Virus record (IMG/VR): IMGVR_UViG_3300034349_000079
Location: 1-64,000 of that record
Reading direction: 5' to 3' (one strand)
Origin: a virus
Lineage: Duplodnaviria > Caudoviricetes
DNA: 64,000 nt
The stretch's first letter is position 1. Each line of letters starts with the position of its first letter. Made by a program: the position numbers and the translations under genes. The notes beneath the pieces were generated by a model. It did not search any database. It was not told the origin of the DNA and saw only the letters and a list, made by a program, of their open reading frames with translations. Positions 9,295 through 36,308 of the stretch are shown one piece after another.

Positions 9295-9369
9295 AGTATT
9301 CTCCTCAACTGGCGACTAGCTGATATATTTGGTCTTTACTTTCCTAGATAGACGATTCGTGATGTATAG

Positions 9370-9518
9370 AGGAACTAGATAGGACTCGAACCTATTTGAT
9401 CGGGGCATATTGAATTATCCAATAGTACACATGTGCACTGTGTAGTATCCTTTCTTTCGTTACCTGTTCCGAGACGGTCAGTAATCCGTTCTGCCTACCC
9501 ATAGCCGTTACAAGTTCC
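9370..9518 (-). ncRNA. oversized tRNA-like RNA A (8-bp acceptor, T-arm, ~115-nt interior)
   Basis: GGAACTTG/CTAGTTCC stem, ATAGG-TTCGAGT-CCTAT T-arm. Confidence 0.55.
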
Positions 9519-9533
9519 TCTATGCACCATAAA

Positions 9534-9623
9534 GGGAAGGTCAACCTAGGAATCGAACCTAGTATAACAGAGATCGTTATGCACTTGATCTCCACTGCTA
9601 TCCTGTTTGCCCGGGCCCCTTCC
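9534..9623 (-). ncRNA. tRNA-like RNA B with a long hairpin in place of the anticodon arm
   Basis: GGAAGG/CCTTCC stem, CTAGG-TTCGATT-CCTAG T-arm, ATAGCA..GAGATC/GATCTC..TGTTAT hairpin. Confidence 0.5.
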
Positions 9624-9712
9624 GCACCCTGTCTCTTTCCATAAGATGACCCAAATACAAATGCTATTACCTGGCCAGATAATTCGCTTTGTACCAAGAT
9701 GTTGACCATAAT

Positions 9713-9778
9713 TGGTGGACAATAGCGGTGTCGAACCGCTTATTCCTACGTGATAGGAAGTATTCCCGATAATTGCCC
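9713..9778 (-). ncRNA. D-stemless tRNA-like RNA C (G3:U70, A73, CCA)
   Basis: GGGCAAT/ATTGTCC-A-CCA, 12-nt TATCGGGAATAC loop, TTCCTAT/GTAGGAA hairpin, AGCGG/CCGCT T-arm. Confidence 0.7.
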
Positions 9779-9788
9779 ATAGTTTGAT

Positions 9789-9869
9789 TGGTTGACACTG
9801 GTGGATTCGAACCACCACCTCCCCCGCGTTAAGCTTAAACGCGTGGGAAAGACTTCCCAAAGAGTGCCA
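9789..9869 (-). ncRNA. D-stemless tRNA-like RNA D (G3:U70, A73, CCA)
   Basis: TGGCACT/AGTGTCA-A-CCA, 12-nt CTTTGGGAAGTC loop, 12-bp hairpin, GGTGG/CCACC T-arm. Confidence 0.7.
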
Positions 9870-9876
9870 GTATTGA

Positions 9877-10081
9877 TCTCCAGTACGGGAGTCGAACCCG
9901 TTATAGACTATACTGCGTGCATTACTTCGCAGCGAACACTGAGATTAAAACGCGCATCATCGAAACTAACTCGTCTCTGGGCTAGCCACTGCACCTGCAA
10001 AATCCCTCAGTTTCCTAAAGTCATCGCTTTTTCGCTTCACCTCTTCGTTTTTAGGCGGCGGTACCATTTGCCTTACTGGAG
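9877..10081 (-). ncRNA. 205-nt tRNA-framed RNA E
   Basis: perfect CTCCAGT/ACTGGAG acceptor, GGC/GCC D-arm, ACGGG-TTCGACT-CCCGT T-arm, ~150-nt multi-hairpin interior. Confidence 0.6.
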
Positions 10082-11628: not shown

Positions 11629-12327
11629 TCAAGTTCTAGGTTTTAAGACTGGGTTATATGGGCGTAGAAGCTTGCGCTCTATTTCGTGAGCCATTGTTGG
11701 TGTTCGATCCAGTCTGTAGAAATACTTTGTATCATCAGGTTCTTCAGACCATCCAAATTGTTCGTACCAGTCTGACTCTGGTTGCCCAAAGAATTCCCAG
11801 ATAGCTTGATAATTTTCTCTTGTCCAGGAAGTACGAGATGGAAGTAAGTTTCTCGTACAAGCGTGATCTGGGTACTCAGCATTTTTCCATTTTTTGTGTG
11901 TTGCTATTTTACAACCCTTATACAATAGTAGAGCACGGAGGCCAGAATGAAATTCTTCATCCCCCCAAAAAGGAGGATCAATTTCTGGATACTCTGCCTC
12001 CTCCAGTTTTGAGACTATGTCACGCCACTTAAAAAGCGCTTCCTTACGCTTCTTCAGCATCTCAGTTTTGCCACTTACCTTGATAGGACGTATGATTCGT
12101 TCTTCAGATGTGGTGGCTATAAAACGAGCTAATTGTAGTTCGGCGTTAGTCCAGAATTTTGCCATTGTGTGGTATGAATATCCACTTTCTCCATTAGCCC
12201 TTTTGGGATAACATTCACAAAGACTTTTCAAGATAAGTAGACCAGCTACTTCTACTTGATATAAGTGCTTGATACTCAGTGCCTTAGCACTTCTCTCAAA
12301 ATCTGGGAAAGGCATAAAGACGATCAT
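11629..12327 (-). CDS. pyrimidine-dimer DNA glycosylase (DenV / MSMEG_6728-like)
   Basis: FMPFPDFERSAKAL...HTMAKFW...PPFWGDEEFH pattern. Confidence 0.7.
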   Translation of the reverse strand: MIVFMPFPDFERSAKALSIKHLYQVEVAGLLILKSLCECYPKRANGESGYSYHTMAKFWTNAELQLARFIATTSEERIIRPIKVSGKTEMLKKRKEALFKWRDIVSKLEEAEYPEIDPPFWGDEEFHSGLRALLLYKGCKIATHKKWKNAEYPDHACTRNLLPSRTSWTRENYQAIWEFFGQPESDWYEQFGWSEEPDDTKYFYRLDRTPTMAHEIERKLLRPYNPVLKPRT

Positions 12328-13004
12328 CAGAATTTTCTTATGCTAGCTTCGCCATCATTAATCTCAAGAACTTCTCGTTTTCTTGGAAAACAATCGACAT
12401 TGAAGTTATCTGGATAAACTTCCCATACTCCTTGTGAGGTACCAAAAGGACGATAATTAGAATGTCCAAACACTTGTTTGATGCCAGGGACTGGTTTAAA
12501 TTCTTCTGTATCACACCAGAGAATTCCTCCAACAGGAAATAGGCCGCCTCTAGTATAGCCAATTTGTGCGAGGTTTTCGATTGGTGCTTCATCAAGATAT
12601 TTTACTATTTCTTGAAAATTCATATCTTTTTCAGGTAACCAACTTTCGCTGACTCCAGCGTGAGTGACGAGAAAATCATCTACTATAACATACCATCGAA
12701 AATTTCTTAAAATACGTGCCTTCCGTTTGTTTATTTCTTGCTGTGTTTTATGTTCATAACCAGAACATGCATAACGATTATTCAAATACCCATATTCGTG
12801 ATTCGCGATTAAAGCAGTTACATTATCTCTTGTTTCAATAGCTTCTAAAACTAAATCAACGCATTCTATTTGTTCATCTATGTTTTTATCAAAGCTATCT
12901 ACAAAATCAGATACGAATACTGTGGCTTGGTCTTTGTCTTGGAGCAAATCTCTAACATGGCCGACCAACCCATGGATGTCGCCGCATACAATAACGCTAC
13001 TCAT
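12327..13004 (-). CDS. metallophosphoesterase
   Basis: GDIHG, SDFVD, ANHE, THAG, WCD, FGHS. Confidence 0.85.
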   Translation of the reverse strand: MSSVIVCGDIHGLVGHVRDLLQDKDQATVFVSDFVDSFDKNIDEQIECVDLVLEAIETRDNVTALIANHEYGYLNNRYACSGYEHKTQQEINKRKARILRNFRWYVIVDDFLVTHAGVSESWLPEKDMNFQEIVKYLDEAPIENLAQIGYTRGGLFPVGGILWCDTEEFKPVPGIKQVFGHSNYRPFGTSQGVWEVYPDNFNVDCFPRKREVLEINDGEASIRKF

Positions 13005-17411: not shown

Positions 17412-17714
17412 TTATACATATTTAAAAAACACTATTTCAGGTAGAAAATAAAGTAGGCTGCTGGAAGAATCACCGATGTGAAGTTTCCACACCTCATATC
17501 GTAGTAGATTTTTCCGTGCAGCACTTCGTTTAGCACCAGCTAATGTGCCATGAATCTTGTGCCCGTCACCAAGTCCTATGTAGTCGCAGAACCAACTAGT
17601 GATTAATCCCGTCGGTACACTGTACTTATAGGTTGGATAATCAAAGATCTTTATTCTGTACCCAATGTCTTGGTGTTTAAGAGTAGGTGCTGTTATTGCA
17701 ATTGTGTTAACCAT
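17412..17714 (-). CDS. hypothetical protein
   Basis: 100-aa ORF; see 16765..17037. Confidence 0.6.
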   Translation of the reverse strand: MVNTIAITAPTLKHQDIGYRIKIFDYPTYKYSVPTGLITSWFCDYIGLGDGHKIHGTLAGAKRSAARKNLLRYEVWKLHIGDSSSSLLYFLPEIVFFKYV

Positions 17715-18738
17715 CGTTTTTCAGTAAGTACTCGTTGTTAATAACCTTAAATGACGTCGCACCATCTGCCGATTTGAATACCAACCCTTCAATTGAAGGC
17801 ATAGAAGGAAATTTTGTCCGGTTAATTAACTCCGGCAAAGCTAGAATTGATTCCATATCTGTAATACCTAATTCAGGCAGTGTAAAATTCAACCCAAGAG
17901 TAGGAACATGGTTCAAAAAATGTGCTTCGCAAAATGCCGTACGTTCAATATGCGGTAAATAACACTGGTTGTCAATATCCCAAATGTCAAAGATGTAAAT
18001 TTGTACATTGAGATAACCTGCTCTATTTCTTTGAACCCCTGGTCCTGCAAGTTCTCCTTGTACTGCAAGATTTCGACCACAGGCTTCTAGTGCCTTAATG
18101 ATCCCTGAATTCTGTGCCGCATGTATGAACGCATTCCCTGAATTTTCGGGATCCATTTTTAGATCTATGTTGTGAGAACAGACTCCAACTACTCCATCTT
18201 TTAAATAGCCTGTTATTGAACTTCCATCAACTTTCAGAGAGATTTCATACTTAGTCTCTTGGTCAAGTAGTACCTCAGGAATATTTTGTATACGCGTTTG
18301 ACTTGTGCGATGTACAAAATATGGAAAATTGCCTTTACCTAAACCCCTCATATTTTCGGGTAGTGCGCGCTCCCACTTAAGCACGCCGAGTAGCTCAGTG
18401 AGGTCCATGCCCTCGACAAATTTGGCATGCGGCCAATCAGGAAGTTTTAGCAGCAGTCCCTGTGATAATTGTCCACGTAAGCGAACTGTACGTAGTCTTT
18501 CACCTTGAACTTCTTCAAAAACCTTTGGAGAATGCCCAGGTTTTGTAAGAAATGGAGCGAGTTCTGTTGGTACCCAACTATCCACCTCAAAATATAGCAC
18601 TAATTCATCGGTCTTAAAATCATCTTTTTTTACAACACACATCCAGCCATCTACTCTGGCGACCTGGATACTATCCGCGCCTTCAATTGGATTAATTTCT
18701 GCGATACGTCGTATTGTTGCTAGTCTTCTCTCAGACAT
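17707..18738 (-). CDS. RNA ligase, Rnl2 / DRB0094 family
   Basis: N-terminal OB domain (LRTVRLRGQLSQGL), KVDGSS, QGELAGPGVQ, EGLVFK, SFKVINNEYLLK. Confidence 0.9.
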   Translation of the reverse strand: MSERRLATIRRIAEINPIEGADSIQVARVDGWMCVVKKDDFKTDELVLYFEVDSWVPTELAPFLTKPGHSPKVFEEVQGERLRTVRLRGQLSQGLLLKLPDWPHAKFVEGMDLTELLGVLKWERALPENMRGLGKGNFPYFVHRTSQTRIQNIPEVLLDQETKYEISLKVDGSSITGYLKDGVVGVCSHNIDLKMDPENSGNAFIHAAQNSGIIKALEACGRNLAVQGELAGPGVQRNRAGYLNVQIYIFDIWDIDNQCYLPHIERTAFCEAHFLNHVPTLGLNFTLPELGITDMESILALPELINRTKFPSMPSIEGLVFKSADGATSFKVINNEYLLKNDG

Positions 18739-25442: not shown

Positions 25443-25895
25443 CTACACTACGTAGTCTTCGTAGGTGAGGCCTAGTTTAGTAGCGATCTGCTTCAGAACT
25501 ACTGTCTCAGTGGCGTCTACCTCACCGTCACTGGCGGCGATGTCATATGCAATTAGGAAAACATCTTCACAATCAGCGACAGAATCATCTCCTTCGGCGT
25601 TACGCAAATCGCCGATCTCACGCAGCAACGCGGCTTTACCGGCCATCGGACTCGCTTCGATCTTAGTGGCATAGGCAATCACGATCTTGGAAACGTCGGA
25701 TGCACTAAAGGCACCCTTGATCTTGTTGTGGTTGGCCAGGGTGATTTGGCCATTCTTCAACTCATCTTTGCTGATGCCACCGGAAGCCGCAGCCACTAGG
25801 ATAAAGGCAGCAGCGATGGCTTCGAACACGTCCTTGTTAACTTTCTTGGCCTGGCCAGATTTGAGTTGAGTAGTGAAACGGTCTAGAAGACCCAT
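25443..25895 (-). CDS. terB: TerB-family tellurite-resistance protein
   Basis: LVAAASGGISKDE...IAASDGEVDATETVVLKQIATKLGL; start MGLLDRF. Confidence 0.85.
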   Translation of the reverse strand: MGLLDRFTTQLKSGQAKKVNKDVFEAIAAAFILVAAASGGISKDELKNGQITLANHNKIKGAFSASDVSKIVIAYATKIEASPMAGKAALLREIGDLRNAEGDDSVADCEDVFLIAYDIAASDGEVDATETVVLKQIATKLGLTYEDYVV

Positions 25896-26034
25896 AGTTT
25901 TATGCTCGTGGTTGGTTAAAAGGGGTTGTGCCAGTCTTTCCTGGCTGCCAAGCATGGACTTGTTTAGCCTCGCTACTATGCTGGGCCCAACGAGGAGGTT
26001 ACTTCTCGTAATTAAATGAGACGTAGAACTGGCC

Positions 26035-27065: not shown

Positions 27066-28673
27066 TTAAATTTTCTCCGCGATGAAATCGGACACAATCT
27101 GAGGAAGGCTCGCATCAGCCCCAACGCAGTCCAGCATTCCGGAGTCTTTTGGATCAGCGATTGTGAAATTAGTCGCAGTCAAGCCCATGACTACTAACTT
27201 CACGTCGTGGCCTACTTGCTGGCGGTATTCGCGCAAAGCTTGTACTGGCTGAATACGGCCGGCGTAAGTCTCTGAATCCGTCGCGATAATTACAGTCTCA
27301 AAGTTCCGTTGCTTCTGTTTAGCCCAAACCACGGGGAGACTGCAATCAGTTCCGCCGAACGGTAATCGATTAGTTTGGCGAATTATATCGTCTAAGCGTT
27401 GTTTAGGGCTGATGTTGAGCGGAATAAAAGACGTCGAAAAGGCCATGAACTCGTAGTCTTCTTCCAGACGCGCGACTGCCATAGCAAAGGCAACAGAGGC
27501 AGTTCTTGCAGTCATATGCGTTCCTGCGACCATGCTACCGTCCATCGAGCCGCTGACATCCATGGCAAACAGGATTTTCTTTCCTGTCGGAGCAACGTTT
27601 TTGAAAGATAGGTAGAAAGCCGCATCCAGAGCATCTACTATCTTTTGAACCGGAGTCCAAGTTAAAGAACCTTTTACACCGCGCCCTGCCTGATAGGTTG
27701 TAAGAGCCAGAAGGATTGAGAAAGGATGTACACGCGCTTTTTGTAAAGCTTCTGCATCCTGTAGTTTGGAGATCACCAACTTTGTTGCTTCGCTATTTGG
27801 TTGAAGTAAGCCAATATTCGTCATCTTCGATAAGTTTCTAAGCGCCGCATGGAGTGGCATCTTTTGGAGCAAGGCTTCCCAGACGGAGACGCTATTGAGC
27901 CAGGTATTCGGAACCATCTCTCTTGTGAGCCCAAAATCATTTATCAGCGCGATATTTGGCTTATCTGGGCTAGCCATTGCCTTGATATGAGCTTGGACAG
28001 TTTGTGGAAGCATTGACTCATCCGCAACTACTTTTCCAACCGCCCACTTGAATAGATCATTCATTTCAGCATCTTTTGGGACTGGATGCGCCATACGTAG
28101 TGCGTCTTTTGTGGACCAGTCGTTACGAGTGCGATACTTGGTGAATTGATAGCCGAGTTGATCTGGGGTCTTGGATGTATACCACGAGGCAACAGTTTCG
28201 CGTAAAACACGTCCCCAGCCTCTAAGTGGATTCACATAGCTGATGAACTCAAACAAATGGCTCTGAGTCCGTACTACAGAAGAAAATACTTTCATGGCTT
28301 CATGACGTACAGGCAGAGTTCCATGCGAGAAGGCCAAGGCCAAAGCAAACAAGGTTGGACTTACTTTAGGACCCCTGCCTTCCACCGAGATTTGCTTGAG
28401 TAGCTGAATAGCTTCAACACCGATGTCTGAAGGAGCGGAGAAAATATCTACGGCTACTTTAGCGTTGTCCTTAGTCAGTTTCTGTTCTGTTGCGTAGTAT
28501 GTACCTCCGGAACTTCCAAGAATAAGAAAACGTTCGAACTGTTTAAGTGGAGAAATTGTAAAGGTCATGCCATGGGCATTGTTAAGCGACATTTCCCGTT
28601 CTCTACCAGGAATGACCTGCGTTTGTGGAGTTGTAGAATATGAGCGAGCGAAGTTTGCGTACGGACCGGACAT
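27066..28673 (-). CDS. rsr: Ro60/Rsr TROVE-domain RNA-binding protein
   Basis: RFLILGSSGGTYY, GWGRVLR, KYRTRNDWSTKDALRMAHP, MPLHAALRNL, vWA DVSGSM, GGTDCSLP, TDSET. Confidence 0.95.
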   Translation of the reverse strand: MSGPYANFARSYSTTPQTQVIPGREREMSLNNAHGMTFTISPLKQFERFLILGSSGGTYYATEQKLTKDNAKVAVDIFSAPSDIGVEAIQLLKQISVEGRGPKVSPTLFALALAFSHGTLPVRHEAMKVFSSVVRTQSHLFEFISYVNPLRGWGRVLRETVASWYTSKTPDQLGYQFTKYRTRNDWSTKDALRMAHPVPKDAEMNDLFKWAVGKVVADESMLPQTVQAHIKAMASPDKPNIALINDFGLTREMVPNTWLNSVSVWEALLQKMPLHAALRNLSKMTNIGLLQPNSEATKLVISKLQDAEALQKARVHPFSILLALTTYQAGRGVKGSLTWTPVQKIVDALDAAFYLSFKNVAPTGKKILFAMDVSGSMDGSMVAGTHMTARTASVAFAMAVARLEEDYEFMAFSTSFIPLNISPKQRLDDIIRQTNRLPFGGTDCSLPVVWAKQKQRNFETVIIATDSETYAGRIQPVQALREYRQQVGHDVKLVVMGLTATNFTIADPKDSGMLDCVGADASLPQIVSDFIAEKI

Positions 28674-28712
28674 AATAACACCTTAACGTTGGTTGGTTGG
28701 TTGGTTGAAAGA

Positions 28713-28773
28713 AGGGCTAATTAATTATCAAACGGTTTATCATTACAGGTGGTAACGTTTGAAAATCGGCCCT
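28713..28773 (-). ncRNA. Y RNA-like element Y1
   Basis: AGGGCCGA-stem-TTACC...TTAGCCCT. Confidence 0.75.
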
Positions 28774-28783
28774 AAAAAAGAGA

Positions 28784-28858
28784 AGGCTAAAAGCGTCAAA
28801 GAGGATTTTCATAGTCTGACGACTAAGTCATGGAAGATAATTCTCTGACTACGGCCCT
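28784..28858 (-). ncRNA. Y RNA-like element Y2
   Basis: AGGGCCGT-N10-TTATC...TTAGCCTT. Confidence 0.75.
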
Positions 28859-28865
28859 AAAACGG

Positions 28866-28939
28866 GGTGAGTGACGGGCTTCGGACCCGTATTTCTAGGA
28901 ATCACAGTCCTAGGCTTTACCAATTAAGCTACACTCAAC
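28866..28939 (-). tRNA. trnH: tRNA-His(GTG)
   Basis: TAGGA-CTGTGAT-TCCTA, G-1/C73; atypical TCCGAAG T-loop. Confidence 0.85.
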
Positions 28940-28948
28940 ATTTGGAGC

Positions 28949-29063
28949 GGGCAAAGCGCTGTGTTTGAGAGTTCAAGGTCTACAAGTATCTCGGTTGTAG
29001 CCTAGTCTTTAATTCGAATGGTTAGTTCGGATGTTGTCAAGATAATCAAACACTATCGGCCCC
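28949..29063 (-). ncRNA. Y RNA-like element Y3 (long form, two internal hairpins)
   Basis: GGGGCCGA-TAGTGTTTGA-TTATC...TCAAACAC..TTTGCCC. Confidence 0.7.
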
Positions 29064-29145
29064 AGAAACATTTGCATAGTTTATTCGGCAAGCTCCTACT
29101 ATGCTAGGAGTTTCACGGCCAGTCCTAGTTAGAACTGTCCTTGCC

Positions 29146-29457
29146 TTATTTTGGTAAAACGCTCGCAGCAAGCTGGTTGATGCTGCGTAAGAAAAGCAAA
29201 CGCGTTCTTGGATAAGTCCACTTTAGCCAATGTCTCTCGTTTGTTGGATCTCCTATCTCTTCAGACAGAATCATCCGCCATATTTGTGCTGGAGTGTACT
29301 TATGAATGTAGTTTTGATCCCGCGCTGCTTGGGCACTTACTACATGTCCGTGCATAATAGCTCTACGAATAGCCTTACGAACGGGGTCACTTTTATTATA
29401 TCGAGAATGATACAAATGATCTTTTGACATTGGCCTCTGATGAGAGCACCTACTCAT
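29146..29457 (-). CDS. hypothetical protein
   Basis: GAGGT RBS before MSRCSHQ. Confidence 0.6.
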   Translation of the reverse strand: MSRCSHQRPMSKDHLYHSRYNKSDPVRKAIRRAIMHGHVVSAQAARDQNYIHKYTPAQIWRMILSEEIGDPTNERHWLKWTYPRTRLLFLRSINQLAASVLPK

Positions 29458-29837
29458 AGTAGACCTCTGATTATTTCCTACATTTTCAACTAGCTTGCGG
29501 AGTATATTCGCTAGAAGCAACAAGCCGCCCCCGTGGTCCTAAAATTGAGTACACGAGCCTCCCGCCTGGCATTTTAGTAGGTTAAAACCCCCTGAAAAAA
29601 TTCGTCACCTGTGGGGTTATTTATCCTAGCATATTCTCCCACCGGTCTTCTTACAAGCCGAGGTGTGGCAAACGGATAAAGGGCGTTTTGTAAGACAAGC
29701 CCTTTAACAACTCTCTCACCTAAATGATCAATTTCTTGAGCGATGATGACAAAACGGTACTACCATAGAGATTTTTATTTTAATCCCCGGCCCTAAAGAC
29801 CGTTGGCTTTTCTTATTAGACGATGGTAGCATTAGTT

Positions 29838-29912
29838 TGGCGACCCTGCGGGGTTTCGAACCCCGGTAATGTGATAGACAATCACATGTCCTAGCCTTTA
29901 GACGACAGAGCC
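29838..29912 (-). tRNA. trnD: tRNA-Asp(GTC)
   Basis: TGTGA-TTGTCTA-TCACA, G73, CCA. Confidence 0.9.
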
Positions 29913-29921
29913 ATATTTTGT

Positions 29922-29981
29922 AGGGCTAAAGATAGTTTTGCTGTTTGATCGCCTAATGATAAAGCAAAACTGGACGGCCCT
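29922..29981 (-). ncRNA. Y RNA-like element Y4
   Basis: AGGGCCGT-AGTTTTGCT-TTATC...AGCAAAACT-ATCTTTAGCCCT. Confidence 0.75.
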
Positions 29982-29986
29982 GAAAT

Positions 29987-30116
29987 TGGTGGAGTAGCCT
30001 CGATTTGCACGAGGATCGTTCATTTTACAGATGAGAATACATCACTATCGTACCGGGTTTGGACGGTCAAGATGTTGCAATGCACTTTTAACGCTCTACT
30101 ATTAAGCTACTACTCC
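29987..30116 (-). ncRNA. tRNA-Tyr(GTA)-like RNA with a 56-nt Y-module insertion in the anticodon stem
   Basis: complete acceptor, D and T arms and CCA; removing the insert gives GTTCAT-CTGTAAA-ATGAAC. Confidence 0.75.
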
Positions 30117-30122
30117 AGAAAT

Positions 30123-30187
30123 TGGCGCGAAAATAAGGGATAATCTACCGGCCGTGTTTGGCTAAAGATGTAGGTCCCGTTTTCGCA
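30123..30187 (-). ncRNA. circularly permuted Y-like RNA with CCA end (P1)
   Basis: TGCGAAAA/TTTTCGCG-CCA outer stem; inner ATCTTTAGCC-loop-GGCCG...TTATC. Confidence 0.65.
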
Positions 30188-30192
30188 TTGTT

Positions 30193-30259
30193 TGGTGCGA
30201 AATAAATAAACTCCACCGGCCAGTGGTTATAGGTGGGATCCTAGTCTAAATATTCCGCA
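30193..30259 (-). ncRNA. circularly permuted Y-like RNA with CCA end (P2)
   Basis: TGCGGAATA/TATTTCGCA-CCA; inner TAACC-ACT-GGCCG. Confidence 0.55.
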
Positions 30260-30264
30260 TTGTT

Positions 30265-30340
30265 TGGTAGCGAGGGCGCGATTCGGACGCGCGATCTTAG
30301 GTTTATGAGACCCATGAGATAACCACTTCTCCACCTCGCT
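30265..30340 (-). tRNA. trnM: tRNA-Met(CAT), initiator-like body
   Basis: TGGGT-CTCATAA-ACCTA, CCA. Confidence 0.85.
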
Positions 30341-30473
30341 AAATTTTAAGTGTCTCTAGATCAATATTTCTATTTCTATCTTACGCCCGCGAGCGGTAGA
30401 TGGCTACTTATAGAACAAGACCTTGTTAATTCCCTAGAGACCGATCAAGGCTATTCCGTTTTACTCATATATT

Positions 30474-30525
30474 CGGTGGACATCAACGGGGTTGAACCGT
30501 TCACTACCGTCGTAGCTTAATGTCC
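30474..30525 (-). ncRNA. 52-nt tRNA minihelix-like RNA
   Basis: GGACATT/GATGTCC-A-CCG, AACGG-TTCAACC-CCGTT T-arm, one 4-bp hairpin between them. Confidence 0.55.
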
Positions 30526-30534
30526 GTAATTAGT

Positions 30535-30656
30535 TGGGACTGAGAGGTTTCGAACCTCTGACATGCTGTTGTGATAATACACCAAATCCGGACTATTTGT
30601 CAAGTTTGGATGGCGCATGTTTTTGACGGCTGCTCTACCAGCTGAGCTACAGTCCC
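30535..30656 (-). ncRNA. tRNA-like RNA with a 47-nt Y-module insertion in the anticodon stem
   Basis: GGGACTG/CAGTCCC, GCTC/GAGC D-arm, AGAGG/CCTCT T-arm; insert contains CTTGAC/GTCCGG helix. Confidence 0.7.
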
Positions 30657-30667
30657 ATTTAAAAAGG

Positions 30668-30817
30668 TGAGGGGAGCAGGTTTCGAAGCTGCAATTTCAC
30701 TATTAAGTGAACCGGTTCCTATTATTATGTAAGTCTATCGACCCATTTGTAATGGGTAAATATATCGATATACAATTTTATATATACCGGTGCGTCTACC
30801 AATTTCGCCATCCCCTC
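30668..30817 (-). ncRNA. tRNA-Leu-like RNA with a ~62-nt Y-module insertion in the anticodon loop
   Basis: Leu-type D-arm and variable arm, CCGGT/ACCGG stem; insert contains TTTACCC/GGGTCGA bulged helix. Confidence 0.7.
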
Positions 30818-30822
30818 ATAAC

Positions 30823-30898
30823 TGGCTCCGAAAAGAGGTTTCGAACCTCTGACAAACTGCTTAACAGGCAGCTACTCTACCAACTGAGTTATATCGGA
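30823..30898 (-). tRNA. trnN: tRNA-Asn(GTT)
   Basis: GCTGC-CTGTTAA-GCAGT, G73, CCA. Confidence 0.9.
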
Positions 30899-30916
30899 TT
30901 AGTGCAGAGGATTATA

Positions 30917-30945
30917 ATAATAATCTAAATCCTCGTGAAAGTCAA
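30917..30945 (-). promoter_or_regulatory. sigma70-type promoter driving the tRNA/Y-RNA cluster
   Basis: TTGACT-17 nt-TATTAT upstream of tRNA-Asn. Confidence 0.6.
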
Positions 30946-31043
30946 ATGCTTTCTCCTGTATGTTGTCGATCAAAGCGAAAAGTTCTTCGTCTGAAATGTC
31001 ATCGTTAAATAGTTCGTTGTCTATCATTTTTATACACGTTGTG

Positions 31044-31118
31044 TGGTCGGCGCCGAGGGAATCGAACCCCCTTAGTCATGGTCCCAAACCATGCGATCAG
31101 CCAATGAACCAGGCACCG
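31044..31118 (-). tRNA. trnP: tRNA-Pro(TGG)
   Basis: CATGG-TTTGGGA-CCATG, CCA. Confidence 0.9.
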
Positions 31119-31125
31119 AGATGGA

Positions 31126-31185
31126 AGGGCTAGTTAGTTATGCTGGGGTTGTATCTTAGAAGGATAACCCATCAAGAACGGCCCT
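31126..31185 (-). ncRNA. Y RNA-like element Y5
   Basis: AGGGCCGT-N10-TTATC...CTAGCCCT. Confidence 0.7.
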
Positions 31186-31385
31186 AAAATCAAAACGCGC
31201 TTACATGGAGACGTCTAGAATTCTCCTAGTGGGTTACACCACGTTTTTCTGTAAAGTAAGCGCCTCATCATCCTAGAATAGTGTGGTTAATGTTGCTTTT
31301 ACACCACAAGGTTTTATTGTAGCAACCCTTCAGCTAGTCATTAATATTACCGTTCGTCAGACTAGCAGTTGAGAACGAGTATTCT

Positions 31386-31461
31386 TGGAGCGGACACGGA
31401 AAGAATCAAACTCCGGTCATTAGCTTGGAAGGCTAAGGTAATATCACTATACGATATCCGC
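31386..31461 (-). tRNA. trnG: tRNA-Gly(TCC)
   Basis: TTAGC-CTTCCAA-GCTAA, U73, CCA; bulged T-stem. Confidence 0.85.
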
Positions 31462-31471
31462 AAAAAACGGT

Positions 31472-31531
31472 TGGGATAATTGATTTATCATGCGAGTGTC
31501 AGTAATTTAGGTAACGCACGACTTCGTCCCA
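31472..31531 (-). ncRNA. Y RNA-like element Y6
   Basis: TGGGACGA-N9-TTACC...TTATCCCA (compensatory C-G to A-U change). Confidence 0.7.
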
Positions 31532-31537
31532 GAAACT

Positions 31538-31627
31538 TGGTGTATGGTAGTTGATTCGAACAACTGTGGGCCATCAAGACCAACGGATTTACAGTCCGTC
31601 CCCGTCAACCAGCTTGGGTAACCATAC
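31538..31627 (-). tRNA. trnY: tRNA-Tyr(GTA)
   Basis: ACGGA-CTGTAAA-TCCGT, long variable arm, CCA. Confidence 0.9.
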
Positions 31628-31677
31628 AAGTAAGTAATAGTACCACATTTTGTCACAATGTGGTACTACGGTTTCGC

Positions 31678-32040
31678 TCAATCCCGAATGAGCTCAACGT
31701 ATTTGATATACTCGCCGAGCACTTCGACAACGACATCTGCGTCGATGCTATCCCCGCTATTAACGTTTTTGCGTAGCCAAGTTTGAACGGCATACGGGAG
31801 AGCGTCTTCCTTGAAGCTCAACACGACGCAGATTTCACCGTCCTCCGGAGGGTCAAACTCCCTGAAAAGAAGCTTATTCAGGTTTGCAACCAGGTCAGTC
31901 CCGTCATCGCACATGTCTTCGAAGAAGTCGTTATCTTCAGCGAATTCCAGAGCTGTGATAATCGCGGTCTTAAGCGTGGCGAGCTCGAGCTTTACACTAT
32001 CGATCTCAGCGTTAAGATCAGCTTTATTCTTCTCAGCCAT
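31678..32040 (-). CDS. hypothetical protein
   Basis: GGAG RBS before MAEKNK. Confidence 0.65.
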   Translation of the reverse strand: MAEKNKADLNAEIDSVKLELATLKTAIITALEFAEDNDFFEDMCDDGTDLVANLNKLLFREFDPPEDGEICVVLSFKEDALPYAVQTWLRKNVNSGDSIDADVVVEVLGEYIKYVELIRD

Positions 32041-32242
32041 GTTGCTTCTCCGGGAACTTGCTGTAGAGCCAGGTGGCGGCATTGACCGGCCATTGGAGGG
32101 CGATCTTGAAGGAGTTTTGCGCCGAAATACCCTGGCTCTTGTGGATATAGCCACCACGAACGAGAGCGATGAAGGCATAGATTAAGAAAAGGTCGCCAAA
32201 TGCGAACATAGTGTTGGATCTCAGGTTGTAGGTTGTGGGTTG

Positions 32243-32512
32243 TCAGGCAGCGAGTGCAGCAGCTGCTGCACCAGGGCCGTTGTCGCGGTCGTATAGCCGA
32301 GGATCGAGGCTATCGCCTTCAATTTCGACTCTCATAACGCGGCCATGAACATAGTCAAAATAGTTGTATTGGTCTAACAGGCTTCTGGCTTCTTCCTCCG
32401 TCATGGGCGCAGGATCGAAGTGCAAGATATCCAGGCCAAGAGGCTTAGCCGCATCGTAGAGCTTGCGTAGAACATCTACCTTGTCAAGTCCAGAAATGTC
32501 GATGTCTGTCAT
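32243..32512 (-). CDS. conserved phage hypothetical protein
   Basis: IDISGLDK..VL..LY...YFDYVHGRVM...LYDRDNGPGAA pattern recognised from phage proteins. Confidence 0.7.
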   Translation of the reverse strand: MTDIDISGLDKVDVLRKLYDAAKPLGLDILHFDPAPMTEEEARSLLDQYNYFDYVHGRVMRVEIEGDSLDPRLYDRDNGPGAAAAALAA

Positions 32513-34418: not shown

Positions 34419-36308
34419 TTATACCAGAGTCAAACATACACGACAAGAGTTTGGAGAGGCCCTTATTACCTCAACATTTACTTTTTCGTGTCCGTCTGTA
34501 AAACGGTGGAACTCTGCCGCTGTTGCAGGAATGGGCTTCAAGTCCGCTACCTTGTATGCGCCATTCACCCATCCAGTATCGCAGATCATGGTGATCAATC
34601 TCGCAGTTTGTTTGCCAAACCGTTGGAAAAGCTCCGGGGGGGCAAACCTCGCGCTAAGACGAGGCGGGCCGAACGCGATCAAAGCGATGTTGGCATCTTC
34701 GGTGGAGAATTTCTCTCCACCAATCGAACCCGTCAAACTGGCAATCTCAAACTGCCCACGTATCGTTCTAAGCTGTTCGATCAGATCGGCCTTATAGCCT
34801 TCACGTAGCGCTTCATCTTCGATCTCTTCTGCACCAGCGGCTTCTCCGAGGTCGGATGCCAAAGTGCGGTAATTCAGGGCTAGGCTCTTCATTGCCGAAG
34901 CGGCAAGCGGATTACAGGCCGCTCTTGCACCTTCTAGGATCGAGTTTGGTAGGCGAGCATTAGCCTGGTTACGAAAGAACTCCACGTCTGTGAAGAGTTG
35001 GTTTAGTACCAGGGCGCGATTGGCCAGGGCGTGCTCGAATAGCGTACCCTCATCCCAGGTACCGATTTCTACAGCATTTATCAAGGCGATCCATGCCAGG
35101 CGCTTGTTCTCTAGTCCTCCGACGTTTTTGAGCTTGTTGATAAAGTCCGTGATAAATGGCTTTTCAGCCCCATGTTGTCGAACCAATTCCATCAACATGA
35201 GGAACTGAGACTCGACTGTTGCGTTATCGACCGGATGTTTCTTAGCCTGTACCGACGCTTGAGCGACGCCTGCCAATATGCCGCGCAGATGTTCGTCGGC
35301 CAGACCGCGTTCGATCAGCCGCATAGCAGCGAGGATAGTAGGACCTAGCCTACCTGTCACTGTCGATGCAGCAGCTTCGATCATTTGTTTACCGACGTCG
35401 TCAGAGGCGTATTGCTTTGCTTCAGGAGCCAAATAGTCCGGTCTGGATACGGCTCCCTTGGGAAGCAAGACCGCGCTTGGGGCGTAAATTACCCCATTAT
35501 CCCCATCGAAATCTCCACCTCCGGCTTTCCAGTGTTTGGAAGCTGGGTTAAGGATGATGCCATAGATAGCACGAACGGTATCATCGAGCCATTCCAGCAC
35601 ACCAGTGTACATTGCCGGATACATGGATGTCCCGTCTGGCAAAGCTGGATCACGGTGAATCAGGAACCACCGGCCCATCAGTTCATGCGGCTTGACACCG
35701 AGTTGCTTCGCCAATTTGAGGGCTGAGCCCTTCAGTAGCATGAAGCACGGAAACTCTTGATGTTCAAACCTCTCATCATAGGCACCAAAGCGCTCGGATG
35801 GAGTACTTGGCACCAGGGTTGAGCCGTAAATGATGGCTCTTATTCCAGGCGTTTCCAAGCGGTTAAAAGCATCCCATGGCGCGAGTTGATCAAGCAGAAG
35901 GGCTGGCGGGACACCAAATTCGATCTTTAGCTTGCTGTCACGGCCGAGAAGGTCGAGCGCGGTTTTTGTAGTATACCGCAAGGAGTCTTGGTCGAGAAGA
36001 GCAGCGGGATCCTTTGCGCTGAACGAAACGGTCTGCAAGGCCAAGCGGCAACGTTGCTCTCCGATTTCACCTAATTTGTGAAATTTTCCGCTCCCCCCTA
36101 GCGGCTTGCCGAAGCCAGCCTCGTCGCACTTCATCTCCTCTTCATACTCTCCCGTACGGGGATTGTATAGCAACGGACGAACAATTCCCTTGGCTATGGT
36201 AATTGCCCCATCTACGGCTGTTGAGATGAACGTTCCCTGGGCTGGCTCGGAAACACGTGGCCCTAGATATAATGTTCCATCATTTTCGGAACTTTTGAAG
36301 CTTTTCAT
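34419..36308 (-). CDS. single-chain two-barrel RNA polymerase (YonO / RdRP-like)
   Basis: RLETPGIRAII, HRDPALP, GGGDFDGD catalytic motif. Confidence 0.75.
   Translation of the reverse strand: MKSFKSSENDGTLYLGPRVSEPAQGTFISTAVDGAITIAKGIVRPLLYNPRTGEYEEEMKCDEAGFGKPLGGSGKFHKLGEIGEQRCRLALQTVSFSAKDPAALLDQDSLRYTTKTALDLLGRDSKLKIEFGVPPALLLDQLAPWDAFNRLETPGIRAIIYGSTLVPSTPSERFGAYDERFEHQEFPCFMLLKGSALKLAKQLGVKPHELMGRWFLIHRDPALPDGTSMYPAMYTGVLEWLDDTVRAIYGIILNPASKHWKAGGGDFDGDNGVIYAPSAVLLPKGAVSRPDYLAPEAKQYASDDVGKQMIEAAASTVTGRLGPTILAAMRLIERGLADEHLRGILAGVAQASVQAKKHPVDNATVESQFLMLMELVRQHGAEKPFITDFINKLKNVGGLENKRLAWIALINAVEIGTWDEGTLFEHALANRALVLNQLFTDVEFFRNQANARLPNSILEGARAACNPLAASAMKSLALNYRTLASDLGEAAGAEEIEDEALREGYKADLIEQLRTIRGQFEIASLTGSIGGEKFSTEDANIALIAFGPPRLSARFAPPELFQRFGKQTARLITMICDTGWVNGAYKVADLKPIPATAAEFHRFTDGHEKVNVEVIRASPNSCRVCLTLV

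What the first reader, a model, noticed from the sequence alone, without database searches (positions are those of the whole stretch)
29987..30116. tRNA-Tyr with a Y-RNA (Ro-binding) module grafted between positions 28 and 29
Acceptor, D-arm, T-arm and CCA are intact. Deleting 56 nt restores a perfect GTTCAT-CTGTAAA-ATGAAC anticodon arm (GUA). The insert is a hairpin containing CTTGACC...GGTACGA followed, 10 nt later, by TTCTC: the Ro helix and UUAUC-like motif in permuted order. Established: YrlA is a Ro-binding stem fused to a permuted tRNA-like domain. This RNA has the opposite topology, a true-ended and possibly chargeable tRNA carrying the Ro site. A normal tRNA-Tyr is also encoded (31538), so the chimera is free to be a tether, a decoy or an intron-bearing precursor.
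Basis: partly seen in the sequence, partly recalled or inferred. Interest (0 to 1): 0.92.

Follow-up and report, generated by a model that had tools for sequence, protein, structure and literature searches.

The report
tRNA-shaped Y RNA beside phage Ro60
A phage gene encodes a 130-base RNA with the ends and cloverleaf of a tRNA and a tyrosine anticodon loop, plus an extra arm in the anticodon stem carrying the docking helix for the phage's own Ro60 protein; it is probably a rewired partner RNA of Ro60, of a widespread design I found in no paper, and not a decoding tRNA.

Summary
On the minus strand, 30116-29987 is a 130-nt RNA gene. Deleting 56 nt (30089-30034) gives a 74-nt cloverleaf that ARAGORN calls tRNA-Tyr(GUA). 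The insert is a hairpin holding CUUGACC/GGUACGA (a bulged Ro-type helix closed by a loop) and then UUCUC.

The design is not a one-off. A covariance model built only from 16 such RNAs in other genomes picks this locus as the best hit in the window (70 bits, E 2e-16; ordinary tRNAs reach 39.5 bits at most). In all 16 viral examples (this locus and 15 others) the insert can sit between tRNA positions 28 and 29, and a 7-nt anticodon loop is kept, with about 20 different anticodons over the 35 viral and bacterial candidates.

Their D and T arms match the YrlA consensus, so this is a circular permutation of YrlA with free acceptor ends.

It most likely works unspliced as a Ro60 ligand. Binding, charging and splicing are untested. 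Earlier notes of this scan report the same class in at least 27 other genomes. I found no published description.

The parts
29987..30116 (-). Whole chimeric RNA gene (130 nt): tRNA body with encoded CCA, plus the Y module
   Evidence: Top hit of model R1: 70.0 bits, E 2.4e-16, full-length alignment.
30090..30116 (-). 5' tRNA part: acceptor 5' strand GGAGUAG, U8 A9, D arm GCUU-AAUAGUA-GAGC, G26, U27 U28
   Evidence: Sequence and ARAGORN cloverleaf of the deleted form. The D loop has a single G.
30034..30089 (-). 56-nt inserted Y module between tRNA positions 28 and 29
   Evidence: Unique best deletion. The same insertion point fits all 16 viral examples.
30077..30086 (-). P1 5' strand (AGUGCAUUGC), preceded by the unpaired AAA linker at 30087-30089
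   Evidence: MFE fold. The equivalent helix shows compensatory changes in 5 of 6 pairs in other genomes.
30064..30071 (-). Ro-helix strand CUUGACCG, equivalent to the 3' strand of linear Y RNAs
   Evidence: Aligned to the conserved CUUGCCC block of the class.
30056..30063 (-). 8-nt cap loop UCCAAACC that closes the Ro helix where linear Y RNAs have their termini
   Evidence: MFE fold and R1 alignment.
30048..30055 (-). Ro-helix strand CGGUACGA, equivalent to the 5' strand GGUCCGA / GGGCCGA; A or C is bulged
   Evidence: Compare the motifs GGUCCGA and GNCGAAN0-1G in PMC4201824.
30036..30045 (-). P1 3' strand (GUGAUGUAUU)
   Evidence: MFE fold.
30033..30037 (-). UUAUC-like motif (UUCUC); its last C is tRNA nucleotide 29
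   Evidence: In the class, the base after GGGCCG-N9-13-RUUAY is C in 345 of 355 cases.
30021..30033 (-). Retained anticodon hairpin CAU-CUGUAAA-AUG; anticodon GUA at 30028-30026
   Evidence: A 3-bp stem with a 7-nt loop is conserved, with covariation, in the class.
29987..30020 (-). 3' tRNA part: A42 A43, 4-nt variable region CGAU, T arm CCUCG-UGCAAAU-CGAGG, acceptor 3' strand CUACUCC, A73, CCA
27066..28673 (-). Ro60 ortholog, the presumed protein partner
   Evidence: Pfam TROVE 3.3e-44 and Ro60 vWA 1.7e-58. 42% identical to annotated Ro-like proteins of actinophages.
31538..31627 (-). Ordinary class II tRNA-Tyr(GUA) with the same anticodon loop, CUGUAAA
   Evidence: ARAGORN; sequence.
30535..30656 (-). 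Sibling chimera without a canonical anticodon loop
   Evidence: Rfam tRNA hit with a 56-nt 'loop'. R1 58.2 bits with the anticodon hairpin deleted. Homolog at L006:8832-8953.
30666..30817 (-). Sibling chimera on a Leu-like class II body; the module replaces the anticodon loop
   Evidence: R1 27.8 bits.

Best explanation
This is a Y RNA built on a tRNA chassis, and it works unspliced.

- Transcription and processing (inferred): it is transcribed with the phage's tRNA and Y-RNA cluster just upstream of the Ro60 gene. Its 7-bp acceptor stem, A73 and encoded CCA let the host tRNA-processing enzymes (RNase P, 3' trimming) define its ends.
- Fold (predicted): an L-shaped tRNA-like body with a three-way junction in the anticodon stem, where a 56-nt arm leaves the 5' strand between nucleotides 28 and 29.
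- Docking arm (shown at sequence level): the arm carries the bulged helix CUUGACC/GGU[A]CGA followed by a UUAUC-like motif. These are the elements by which Y RNAs dock on the outer surface of Ro60, here closed by a loop instead of formed by the RNA termini.
- Role (inferred by analogy): the phage Ro60 binds this arm, and the tRNA body, with its retained GUA anticodon loop, plays the part of the tRNA-like domain of YrlA. It would be a handle for tRNA-recognising factors and a processing and stability scaffold, tethering Ro60 to them.

In circular order the RNA is identical to YrlA, but it is opened at the acceptor stem instead of at the Ro stem. The partner of the tRNA part is unknown.
For: Shown by tools:

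1. Partner gene. A Ro60 gene lies 1.3 kb downstream on the same strand.
2. Motif of the partner RNAs. In 96 loci that carry Ro60 homologs, GGGCCG-N9-13-RUUAYC occurs about 115 times, almost always on the Ro60 strand and just upstream of the gene. My estimate of the chance expectation is about 3. The window has linear Y-like RNAs of this kind.
3. Family membership. Model R1, built from 16 chimeras of other genomes only, scores this locus 70.0 bits (E 2.4e-16) over its full length, including P1, the Ro helix, UUAUC and the anticodon hairpin. Ordinary tRNAs of the window reach 39.5 bits at most.
4. Fixed insertion point. The 28/29 position fits all 16 viral examples.
5. Covariation. P1 has compensatory changes in 5 of 6 pairs, and the D stem, which I did not select for, in 3 of 4. 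Own P1 strands pair better than foreign ones (-12.8 against -8.9 kcal/mol, p = 3e-4).
6. Homology to YrlA. Rfam's YrlA model aligns end to end (37.9 bits, E 7e-7 in that search) across the junction of two tandem chimeras in L051, matching their T and D arms.

Against splicing and for function as a chimera:

- tRNA nucleotide 29 is C in 30 of 35 chimeras. It is the C of UUAUC, which is C in 345 of 355 Y modules, whereas ordinary tRNAs of the same loci have C29 in 207 of 740.
- Sibling forms in which the module replaces the anticodon loop cannot yield a tRNA by excision, yet they are conserved.
- The phage already has a normal tRNA-Tyr.

Literature: YrlA is a Ro60-bound tRNA mimic with a closed acceptor loop, no CCA and no anticodon loop.
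Against:
- This copy departs from the class consensus: GGUACG for GGGCCG, UUCUC for UUAUC, and one non-standard pair in the Ro helix.
- Rfam's Y_RNA and YrlA models do not hit it, even at E<=10.
- A pure tether or scaffold role does not explain why a canonical 7-nt loop with U33 and a purine at 37 is kept, with about 20 different anticodons.
- The covariation figures for the acceptor, T and anticodon stems are inflated, because my detector required those pairs.
Confidence: 0.7

Rival explanations
1. Intron-bearing precursor. The 56-nt module is a new kind of tRNA intron. It is cut out by an unidentified endonuclease and the halves are joined, perhaps by the phage RNA ligase. The products are a class I tRNA(GUA) and a free Ro-binding hairpin.
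For: - Deletion restores a perfect anticodon arm, here and in every type-A example.
- Anticodon loops are canonical and diverse.
- The phage encodes an RNA ligase at 17707-18738.
Against: - There is no bulge-helix-bulge motif: the 3' exon start CAUC cannot pair with the start of the insert (my inspection, not a tool result). The junction strands face each other at a three-way junction.
- At 56 nt the insert is far too short for a group I intron. No intron or self-cleaving ribozyme family is hit at E<=10.
- No splicing endonuclease or RtcB was seen among the 20 proteins scanned with Pfam.
- Nucleotide 29 is constrained as part of UUAUC.
- The spliced product would be a class I body with a non-canonical elbow carrying a Tyr anticodon. 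It would duplicate the normal tRNA-Tyr.
- Discriminator bases of class members often do not fit their anticodons by E. coli identity rules (my reading).
Confidence: 0.12
2. The arm binds something other than Ro60, or is only a structural extension, and the resemblance to the Ro helix is a by-product of descent from a Y RNA.
For: - This copy's helix differs from the phage's own linear Y RNAs (GGGCCG / UUAGCCC) at several positions.
- Published work says Ro60 mainly reads the 5' strand of the helix.
Against: - The copies in other genomes keep GGGCCGA and CUUGCCC almost unchanged.
- They sit directly beside Ro60 genes.
- The arm matches the vertebrate strands GGUCCGA and CUUGAC in 6 of 7 and 6 of 6 bases.
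Confidence: 0.1
3. Dead gene: a tRNA gene disrupted by insertion of a Y-RNA-derived element, with no function.
For: - The D and T loops are degenerate.
- The anticodon is redundant with a normal tRNA-Tyr.
- Rfam's tRNA model does not hit it.
Against: - All five helices of the tRNA and both helices of the module are intact, and CCA is encoded.
- The same architecture is conserved with covariation across phages and bacteria whose Ro60 proteins are only 41-53% identical.
- L001:5067-5188, which I take to be a homolog in a syntenic phage, shares the unusual D loop (UAGUA) and T loop (UGCAA).
Confidence: 0.04

Closest known systems
YrlA (Y RNA-like A; Rfam RF02553; Chen et al. 2014, PMC4201824; structure in Wang et al. 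2018, bioRxiv 10.1101/312249)
   Same: - A Ro60/Rsr docking element joined through the anticodon-stem position to a tRNA-like body with D and T arms.
- Encoded next to Ro60 on the same strand.
- The circular order of elements is identical.
- The D and T arm sequences of the class match the YrlA consensus.
   Different: - YrlA's termini form the Ro stem, its acceptor stem is a closed loop, and it has no CCA and no anticodon loop.
- Here the termini form a 7-bp acceptor stem with A73-CCA, and the Ro helix is closed by a loop.
- The module leaves the 5' strand of the anticodon stem at 28/29, and a complete anticodon hairpin remains.
- RF02553 does not hit this locus.
Metazoan Y RNAs and nematode stem-bulge RNAs (Rfam RF00019; RF01656)
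   Same: - A bulged helix GGUCCGA/CUUGAC followed by a UUAUC motif; these are motifs recalled from the literature, partly cited.
- The linear Y-like RNAs of this phage and its relatives give weak RF01656 hits of 19-37 bits.
   Different: Those RNAs are linear stem-loop RNAs without a tRNA body. No RF00019 hit was obtained here.
Deinococcus radiodurans Yrn1
   Same: A Ro-bound Y RNA with tRNA-like T-arm features. It has an orientation in which the Ro stem sits at the acceptor position and an anticodon-like arm is present.
   Different: In Yrn1 the Ro stem is formed by the termini, and the loop of the anticodon-like arm has 6 nt. Here the acceptor is free and the Ro helix branches from the anticodon stem.
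Intron-containing tRNAs (archaeal and eukaryal bulge-helix-bulge introns; bacterial group I introns in tRNA genes)
   Same: An insert in the anticodon arm whose removal restores a cloverleaf. Gene finders report it as an intron.
   Different: - Position 28/29 in a stem, with no bulge-helix-bulge motif.
- 56 nt, with no group I core.
- The insert is a Ro-type module, and its last motif base is an 'exon' nucleotide.
Engineered tRNA scaffolds for recombinant RNA (Ponchon and Dardel; from my own knowledge, not checked here)
   Same: A foreign structured RNA placed in the anticodon arm of a tRNA, so that tRNA-processing enzymes give it defined ends and stability.
   Different: That is a laboratory device, and it does not keep an anticodon hairpin beside the insert.

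Membership tests
Y RNA (Ro60 ligand in the broad sense) | Conserved bulged helix with a GGUCCGA-like strand paired to a CUUGAC-like strand | tested here: met
   CUUGACC/GGU[A]CGA is present. R1 aligns it to the conserved CUUGCCC/GGGCCGA block of the class, with one non-standard pair.
Y RNA (Ro60 ligand in the broad sense) | Encoded close to a Ro60 gene on the same strand | tested here: met
   A TROVE + Ro60 vWA protein is at 27066-28673 (-), 1.3 kb downstream.
Y RNA (Ro60 ligand in the broad sense) | The Ro-binding stem is formed by the 5' and 3' ends of the RNA | tested here: not met
   The helix is closed by an 8-nt loop, and the RNA ends form an acceptor stem.
Y RNA (Ro60 ligand in the broad sense) | Physical binding to Ro60 | not testable with these tools
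   No RNA-protein assay or predictor was available.
YrlA (RF02553) | Match to the Rfam covariance model at or above 69 bits | tested here: not met
   No hit on this locus at E<=10. Relatives reach 37.9 bits only when read across two tandem copies.
YrlA (RF02553) | tRNA-like domain with a closed acceptor loop, no CCA and no anticodon loop | tested here: not met
   Open 7-bp acceptor with A73-CCA and a 7-nt anticodon loop.
YrlA (RF02553) | Conserved D and T arm sequences (GUAGCUCA..GGUAGAGC; GCGGGUUCGA..CCCGC) | tested here: inconclusive
   Met by most class members. This copy has GUAGCUUAAUAGUAGAGC and CCUCGUGCAAAUCGAGG, so the D arm matches in part and the T arm does not.
tRNA (RF00005), specifically bacterial tRNA-Tyr | Cloverleaf recognised by tRNA finders | tested here: inconclusive
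   The uncut gene gives no RF00005 hit. With 56 nt removed, ARAGORN calls tRNA-Tyr(gta).
tRNA (RF00005), specifically bacterial tRNA-Tyr | Canonical elbow (G18 G19; T54 Psi55 C56) | tested here: not met
   D loop AAUAGUA and T loop UGCAAAU.
tRNA (RF00005), specifically bacterial tRNA-Tyr | Long variable arm (class II), as in bacterial tRNA-Tyr | tested here: not met
   The variable region is the 4 nt CGAU. The phage's normal tRNA-Tyr has the long arm.
Intron-containing tRNA | Bulge-helix-bulge motif at the exon-intron borders, or a group I intron core | tested here: not met
   The fold shows a three-way junction. The 3' exon start cannot pair with the start of the insert. No intron family is hit at E<=10.
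Intron-containing tRNA | A spliced RNA exists in cells | not testable with these tools
tRNA-topology Y RNA with a 28/29 insert (class defined here) | Full-length match to a model built from members in other genomes | tested here: met
   R1: 70.0 bits, E 2.4e-16, model positions 1-124; the best hit in the window.

The most novel reading that the evidence does not exclude
The retained anticodon loop is an address. Each chimera would use its tRNA body and anticodon (GUA here; about 20 different triplets across the class) to be recognised by one tRNA-specific factor: an aminoacyl-tRNA synthetase, a wobble-base modifying enzyme or a host anticodon nuclease. Ro60, and any nuclease it recruits, would thereby be delivered to, or guarded against, a chosen part of the tRNA machinery. 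The RNA might even be aminoacylated.
Probability: 0.2. Interest if true: 0.9.

Novelty: new variant of a known kind. Interest (0 to 1): 0.75.

Why it matters
What the tRNA-like half of bacterial Y RNAs binds has been an open question since 2014. YrlA lacks a CCA end and an anticodon, which ruled out the most obvious partners.

This class keeps both features, in phages and in several bacterial phyla. Aminoacylation, EF-Tu binding, anticodon-directed enzymes and RNase P processing therefore become directly testable as links between Ro60 RNA surveillance and the tRNA machinery.

It also matters for annotation. Gene finders report these RNAs as intron-containing or pseudo tRNAs, and Rfam has no model for them. 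Y RNAs are therefore being missed in lineages where searches with the YrlA model found few: Chen et al. mention cyanobacteria and delta-proteobacteria, and here Polyangiaceae and Myxococcota loci carry the chimeras.

The tandem copies show how duplication could convert one topology into the other.

Tried and rejected
- Rfam at E<=10 over 28500-32500 and 29900-30900 gave no Y_RNA, YrlA, tRNA, intron or ribozyme hit on this locus.
- The first search of viral contigs with the window's Ro60 alone found nothing. Two later attempts failed because the machine was down. The alignment-based search then worked.
- The contig carrying the identical Ro60 could not be fetched, and the record behind L001 is not held.
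- BLAST of the 74-nt deleted form against isolated phages found no insert-free homolog.
- My loose regular-expression scans for closed modules were too noisy to use.
- The MAFFT alignment of the modules alone (A4) was out of register and was dropped.
- The pattern statistic (2 hits against 0.05 expected) was derived from the two window copies themselves, so I give it no weight.
- Classing modules as open or closed by MFE (93 open, 34 closed) is rough, because tandem linear Y RNAs can look closed.
- Two Wolin-lab reviews could not be read. Five literature searches found no description of this topology, but most subscription journals are not in the library.

Full report
**Setting**

The window is part of an 83.6-kb single-contig genome that is a phage. 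It encodes a large terminase, an RIIB-like protein, a primase-like 789-aa protein, family A DNA polymerase, thymidylate synthase and an RNA ligase.

All tRNA genes lie on the minus strand. ARAGORN finds 13, most of them in a cluster at 28864-31627. Directly downstream of that cluster, on the same strand, lies a 535-aa protein at 27066-28673. It has a TROVE domain (3.3e-44) and a Ro60 vWA domain (1.7e-58) and is 42% identical to annotated Ro-like proteins of actinophages.

**The observation**

Read on the minus strand, 30116-29987 is 130 nt.

- It has a perfect 7-bp acceptor stem, A73, an encoded CCA, a 4-bp D stem and a 5-bp T stem.
- I scanned every single deletion between the D and T arms. 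One solution is best: removing 56 nt (30089-30034, or the equivalent 30090-30035) gives UUCAU-CUGUAAA-AUGAA with no mismatch.
- ARAGORN at default settings calls the 74-nt product tRNA-Tyr(gta).
- The insert folds as a long hairpin. It has an unpaired AAA, a 10-bp stem P1, an internal loop, the helix CUUGACC/GGUACGA closed by an 8-nt loop, the return strand of P1, then UUCUC, whose last C is tRNA nucleotide 29.
- A normal 90-nt class II tRNA-Tyr with the same loop lies at 31538-31627.

The description is therefore accurate. Two qualifications apply: the D loop (AAUAGUA) and T loop (UGCAAAU) are not canonical, and Rfam's tRNA model misses the uncut gene.

**Context within the window**

Between the tRNAs lie linear RNAs of the form (U)AGGGCCG-N10-(G)UUAUC ... 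UUAGCCC. Three minus-strand matches to a simple pattern compare with 0.43 expected, and further copies are visible. They give weak hits to the nematode stem-bulge RNA family, which is related to Y RNAs.

Four more RNAs carry the two helix strands in reversed order, joined by a short loop:

- a tRNA-like RNA at 30656-30535;
- a Leu-like class II body at 30817-30666;
- two acceptor-stem-plus-CCA minihelices in 30264-30117.

The return strand of the finding's arm (GGUACG-AUAGUGAUGU-AUUCUC) resembles that of the linear copy starting near 29066 (GGGCCG-AUAGUGUUUG-AUUAUC).

**Relatives**

The closest Ro60 proteins are only 50-53% identical. Their contigs are syntenic phages: Ro60, then a radical SAM gene, then the 789-800-aa primase-like gene. 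They carry arrays of linear Y-like RNAs upstream of Ro60. Some also carry chimeras:

- L006 has homologs of the two sibling chimeras.
- L001 has a chimera with the same odd D loop (UAGUA) and T loop (UGCAA) as the finding.

An alignment-based search then gave 80 viral contigs and 80 bacterial genome contigs with Ro60. In the 96 loci held at that point, GGGCCG-N9-13-RUUAYC occurs about 115 times, nearly always on the Ro60 strand and within a few hundred bases upstream of the gene. By my estimate about 3 are expected.

**The class**

ARAGORN in intron mode, and a structural detector of my own, found many tRNAs with such a module.

- In 16 viral elements, this one included, the insert is compatible with the 28/29 position in every case. 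Other positions fit only where the sequence is ambiguous.
- With bacterial loci there are 35 candidates, a few of them false.
- Inserts are 46-93 nt long.
- There are about 20 different anticodons, always in a 7-nt loop with U33 and a purine at 37. My detector required those two features.
- Nucleotide 29 is C in 30 of 35.
- CCA is encoded in 8 of 35.
- Hosts of the bacterial copies include Polyangiaceae, Myxococcota, Chloroflexia, Longimicrobiaceae, Gemmatimonadota, Planctomycetes and Sericytochromatia.

A second form, in which the module replaces the anticodon loop, ends in a recurrent ...RGGA junction. ARAGORN misreads this junction as Leu or Pro anticodons.

**Statistical membership**

I aligned 16 type-A chimeras from other genomes (A6) and wrote their structure. 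It comprises the acceptor, the D stem, pairs 27-43 and 28-42, P1, the Ro helix, the stem 29-31/39-41 and the T stem.

- Pair counts: 93.9% of cells are paired, against 77% in shuffles and about 40-49% when partners are slid.
- P1 has compensatory changes in 5 of 6 pairs and the D stem in 3 of 4. The Ro helix is conserved in sequence and does not covary.
- The acceptor, T and anticodon stems were selection criteria of my detector, so their figures are not independent. P1 and the D stem were not selected for.

The covariance model R1 built from this alignment was run over the whole window with filters off.

| Hit | Score | Note |
|---|---|---|
| 30116-29990 (the finding) | 70.0 bits, E 2.4e-16 | best hit, aligned over all 124 positions |
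| sibling at 30656-30535 | 58.2 bits | anticodon hairpin deleted |
| ordinary tRNAs | 39.5 bits or less | module deleted |

On 87 other loci the model finds about 29 module-bearing hits, many of them not in the training set.

**Relation to YrlA**

Published work describes YrlA as follows:

- a Ro-binding stem formed by the termini, with a GNCGAAN0-1G motif resembling vertebrate GGUCCGA;
- a tRNA-like domain whose acceptor stem is a closed loop;
- no CCA and no anticodon loop, 'circularly permuted tRNAs'.

In L051 two chimeras lie in tandem. Rfam's YrlA model aligns end to end from the Ro strand of the first to the Ro strand of the second (37.9 bits). It matches the T arm of one, the D arm of the next, and uses their acceptor strands as the YrlA 'acceptor' hairpin.

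The class is therefore homologous to YrlA, not merely analogous, and it is its circular permutation. This also suggests a route between the two forms: duplication followed by loss of the outer halves. That route is my inference.

**Spliced or not**

The evidence favours an unspliced, functional chimera.

1. The base after GGGCCG-N9-13-RUUAY is C in 345 of 355 modules, linear ones included. In the chimeras that C is tRNA nucleotide 29 (30 of 35), whereas ordinary tRNAs of the same loci have C29 in 28% of cases. An 'exon' base is thus constrained by the Y motif.
2. The conserved forms without a restorable anticodon cannot be tRNA precursors.
3. There is no bulge-helix-bulge motif and no group I core. 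No ribozyme family is hit. No splicing endonuclease or RtcB was seen among the 20 proteins scanned with Pfam.
4. The product would be a class I body with a Tyr anticodon and an odd elbow, beside a normal tRNA-Tyr.

Against this, the canonical and diverse anticodon loops call for an explanation that a simple tether or scaffold does not give, and an RNA ligase is encoded. I put the unspliced Ro60 ligand at 0.70 and splicing at 0.12.

**What is shown and what is inferred**

- Shown: the sequence architecture, its conservation, its linkage to Ro60 genes and its homology to YrlA.
- Inferred: processing by tRNA enzymes, Ro60 binding to the arm and tethering through the tRNA body.
- Unknown: the partner of the tRNA half, and whether the RNA is charged.

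**Prior knowledge**

Five searches of the paper library found no description of this topology. Two reviews could not be read, so prior publication cannot be excluded. Rfam 15 has no model for the class.

These notes are leads, not evidence.

Noticed in passing
window 30535-30656 (-): Second chimera. The tRNA body has a YrlA-like D arm, and the anticodon stem GCCGU/ACAGC has a C29-A41 mismatch. The module is flanked by CAAAAAC and UAUUAUCACA, and there is no canonical anticodon loop. Its homolog at L006:8832-8953 keeps AAAAAC, AUUAUC and the mismatch, while P1 covaries. An alternative pairing, GC+UGU with ACAGC, would make it a 28/29 insert with a 9-nt loop.
   Followed up: partly
window 30666-30817 (-): Leu-like class II body with a 69-nt 'anticodon loop' holding UUUACCC/GGGU[C]GA. 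The apparent UAG anticodon belongs to a junction motif (...A/U-R-G-G-A) that recurs in this form in other genomes, so the Leu(UAG) intron call by ARAGORN is probably spurious.
   Followed up: partly
window 30117-30264 (-): Two tandem minihelix RNAs. Each has an 8- or 7-bp acceptor-like stem with NCCA enclosing only a loop-closed Ro-type hairpin (UUAGCC-AAACAC-GGCCGG, then AUUAUC in the second).
   Followed up: no
window 28715-28773, about 28790-28858, about 28940-29066, 29920-29981, 31125-31185 (-): Linear Y-like RNAs, (U)AGGGCCG-N10-RUUAUC ... UUAGCCC, interleaved with the tRNAs upstream of Ro60. They give weak hits to the nematode stem-bulge RNA family RF01656.
   Followed up: partly
window 29758-29830 (-): Degenerate tRNA-like RNA (RF00005 25.9 bits, below threshold). 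Its T arm is AU-rich, and its anticodon region reads CUUUAGGGCCGGGG, which contains the Y-RNA 5' motif.
   Followed up: no
L051:336-448: Rfam's YrlA model aligns over its full length across the junction of two tandem tRNA-topology chimeras. A similar weak hit in the window (30632-30694, 15 bits) spans the junction of the two sibling chimeras. Tandem copies can thus be read in either topology.
   Followed up: yes
L168:5100-6600; also L108, L156: Bacterial MAG contigs (Polyangiaceae, Myxococcales) carry up to four tandem type-A chimeras with different anticodons just downstream of Ro60.
   Followed up: partly
window 17707-18738 (-), 12327-13004 (-), 25443-25955 (-): RNA ligase (PF09414 with the PHA02142 OB fold; PHROG 968), a calcineurin-like phosphoesterase and a TerB-domain protein lie in the same gene block as Ro60. 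Relatives carry RLIG1-type ligase or Metallophos genes near Ro60 (L011, L005).
   Followed up: no
window 34419-36308 (-): A 629-aa protein with no Pfam or PHROG hit. Proteins of similar size with no Pfam hit (639 aa in L004, 625 aa in L006) lie upstream of Ro60 in related contigs; I did not compare the sequences.
   Followed up: no
window 9369-10081 (-): Several odd tRNA-like elements upstream of tRNA-Trp are picked up only by relaxed ARAGORN settings and weakly by R1 (13-16 bits).
   Followed up: no
window 31386-31461 (-): tRNA-Gly(UCC) is 81% identical to the tRNA-Gly of T4-like phages but has a shortened T arm (RF00005 32.9 bits).
   Followed up: no
L001:719-4943: In the syntenic relative, HNH/NUMOD4 homing-endonuclease genes are interleaved with the tRNA and Y-RNA cluster upstream of Ro60.
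   Followed up: no
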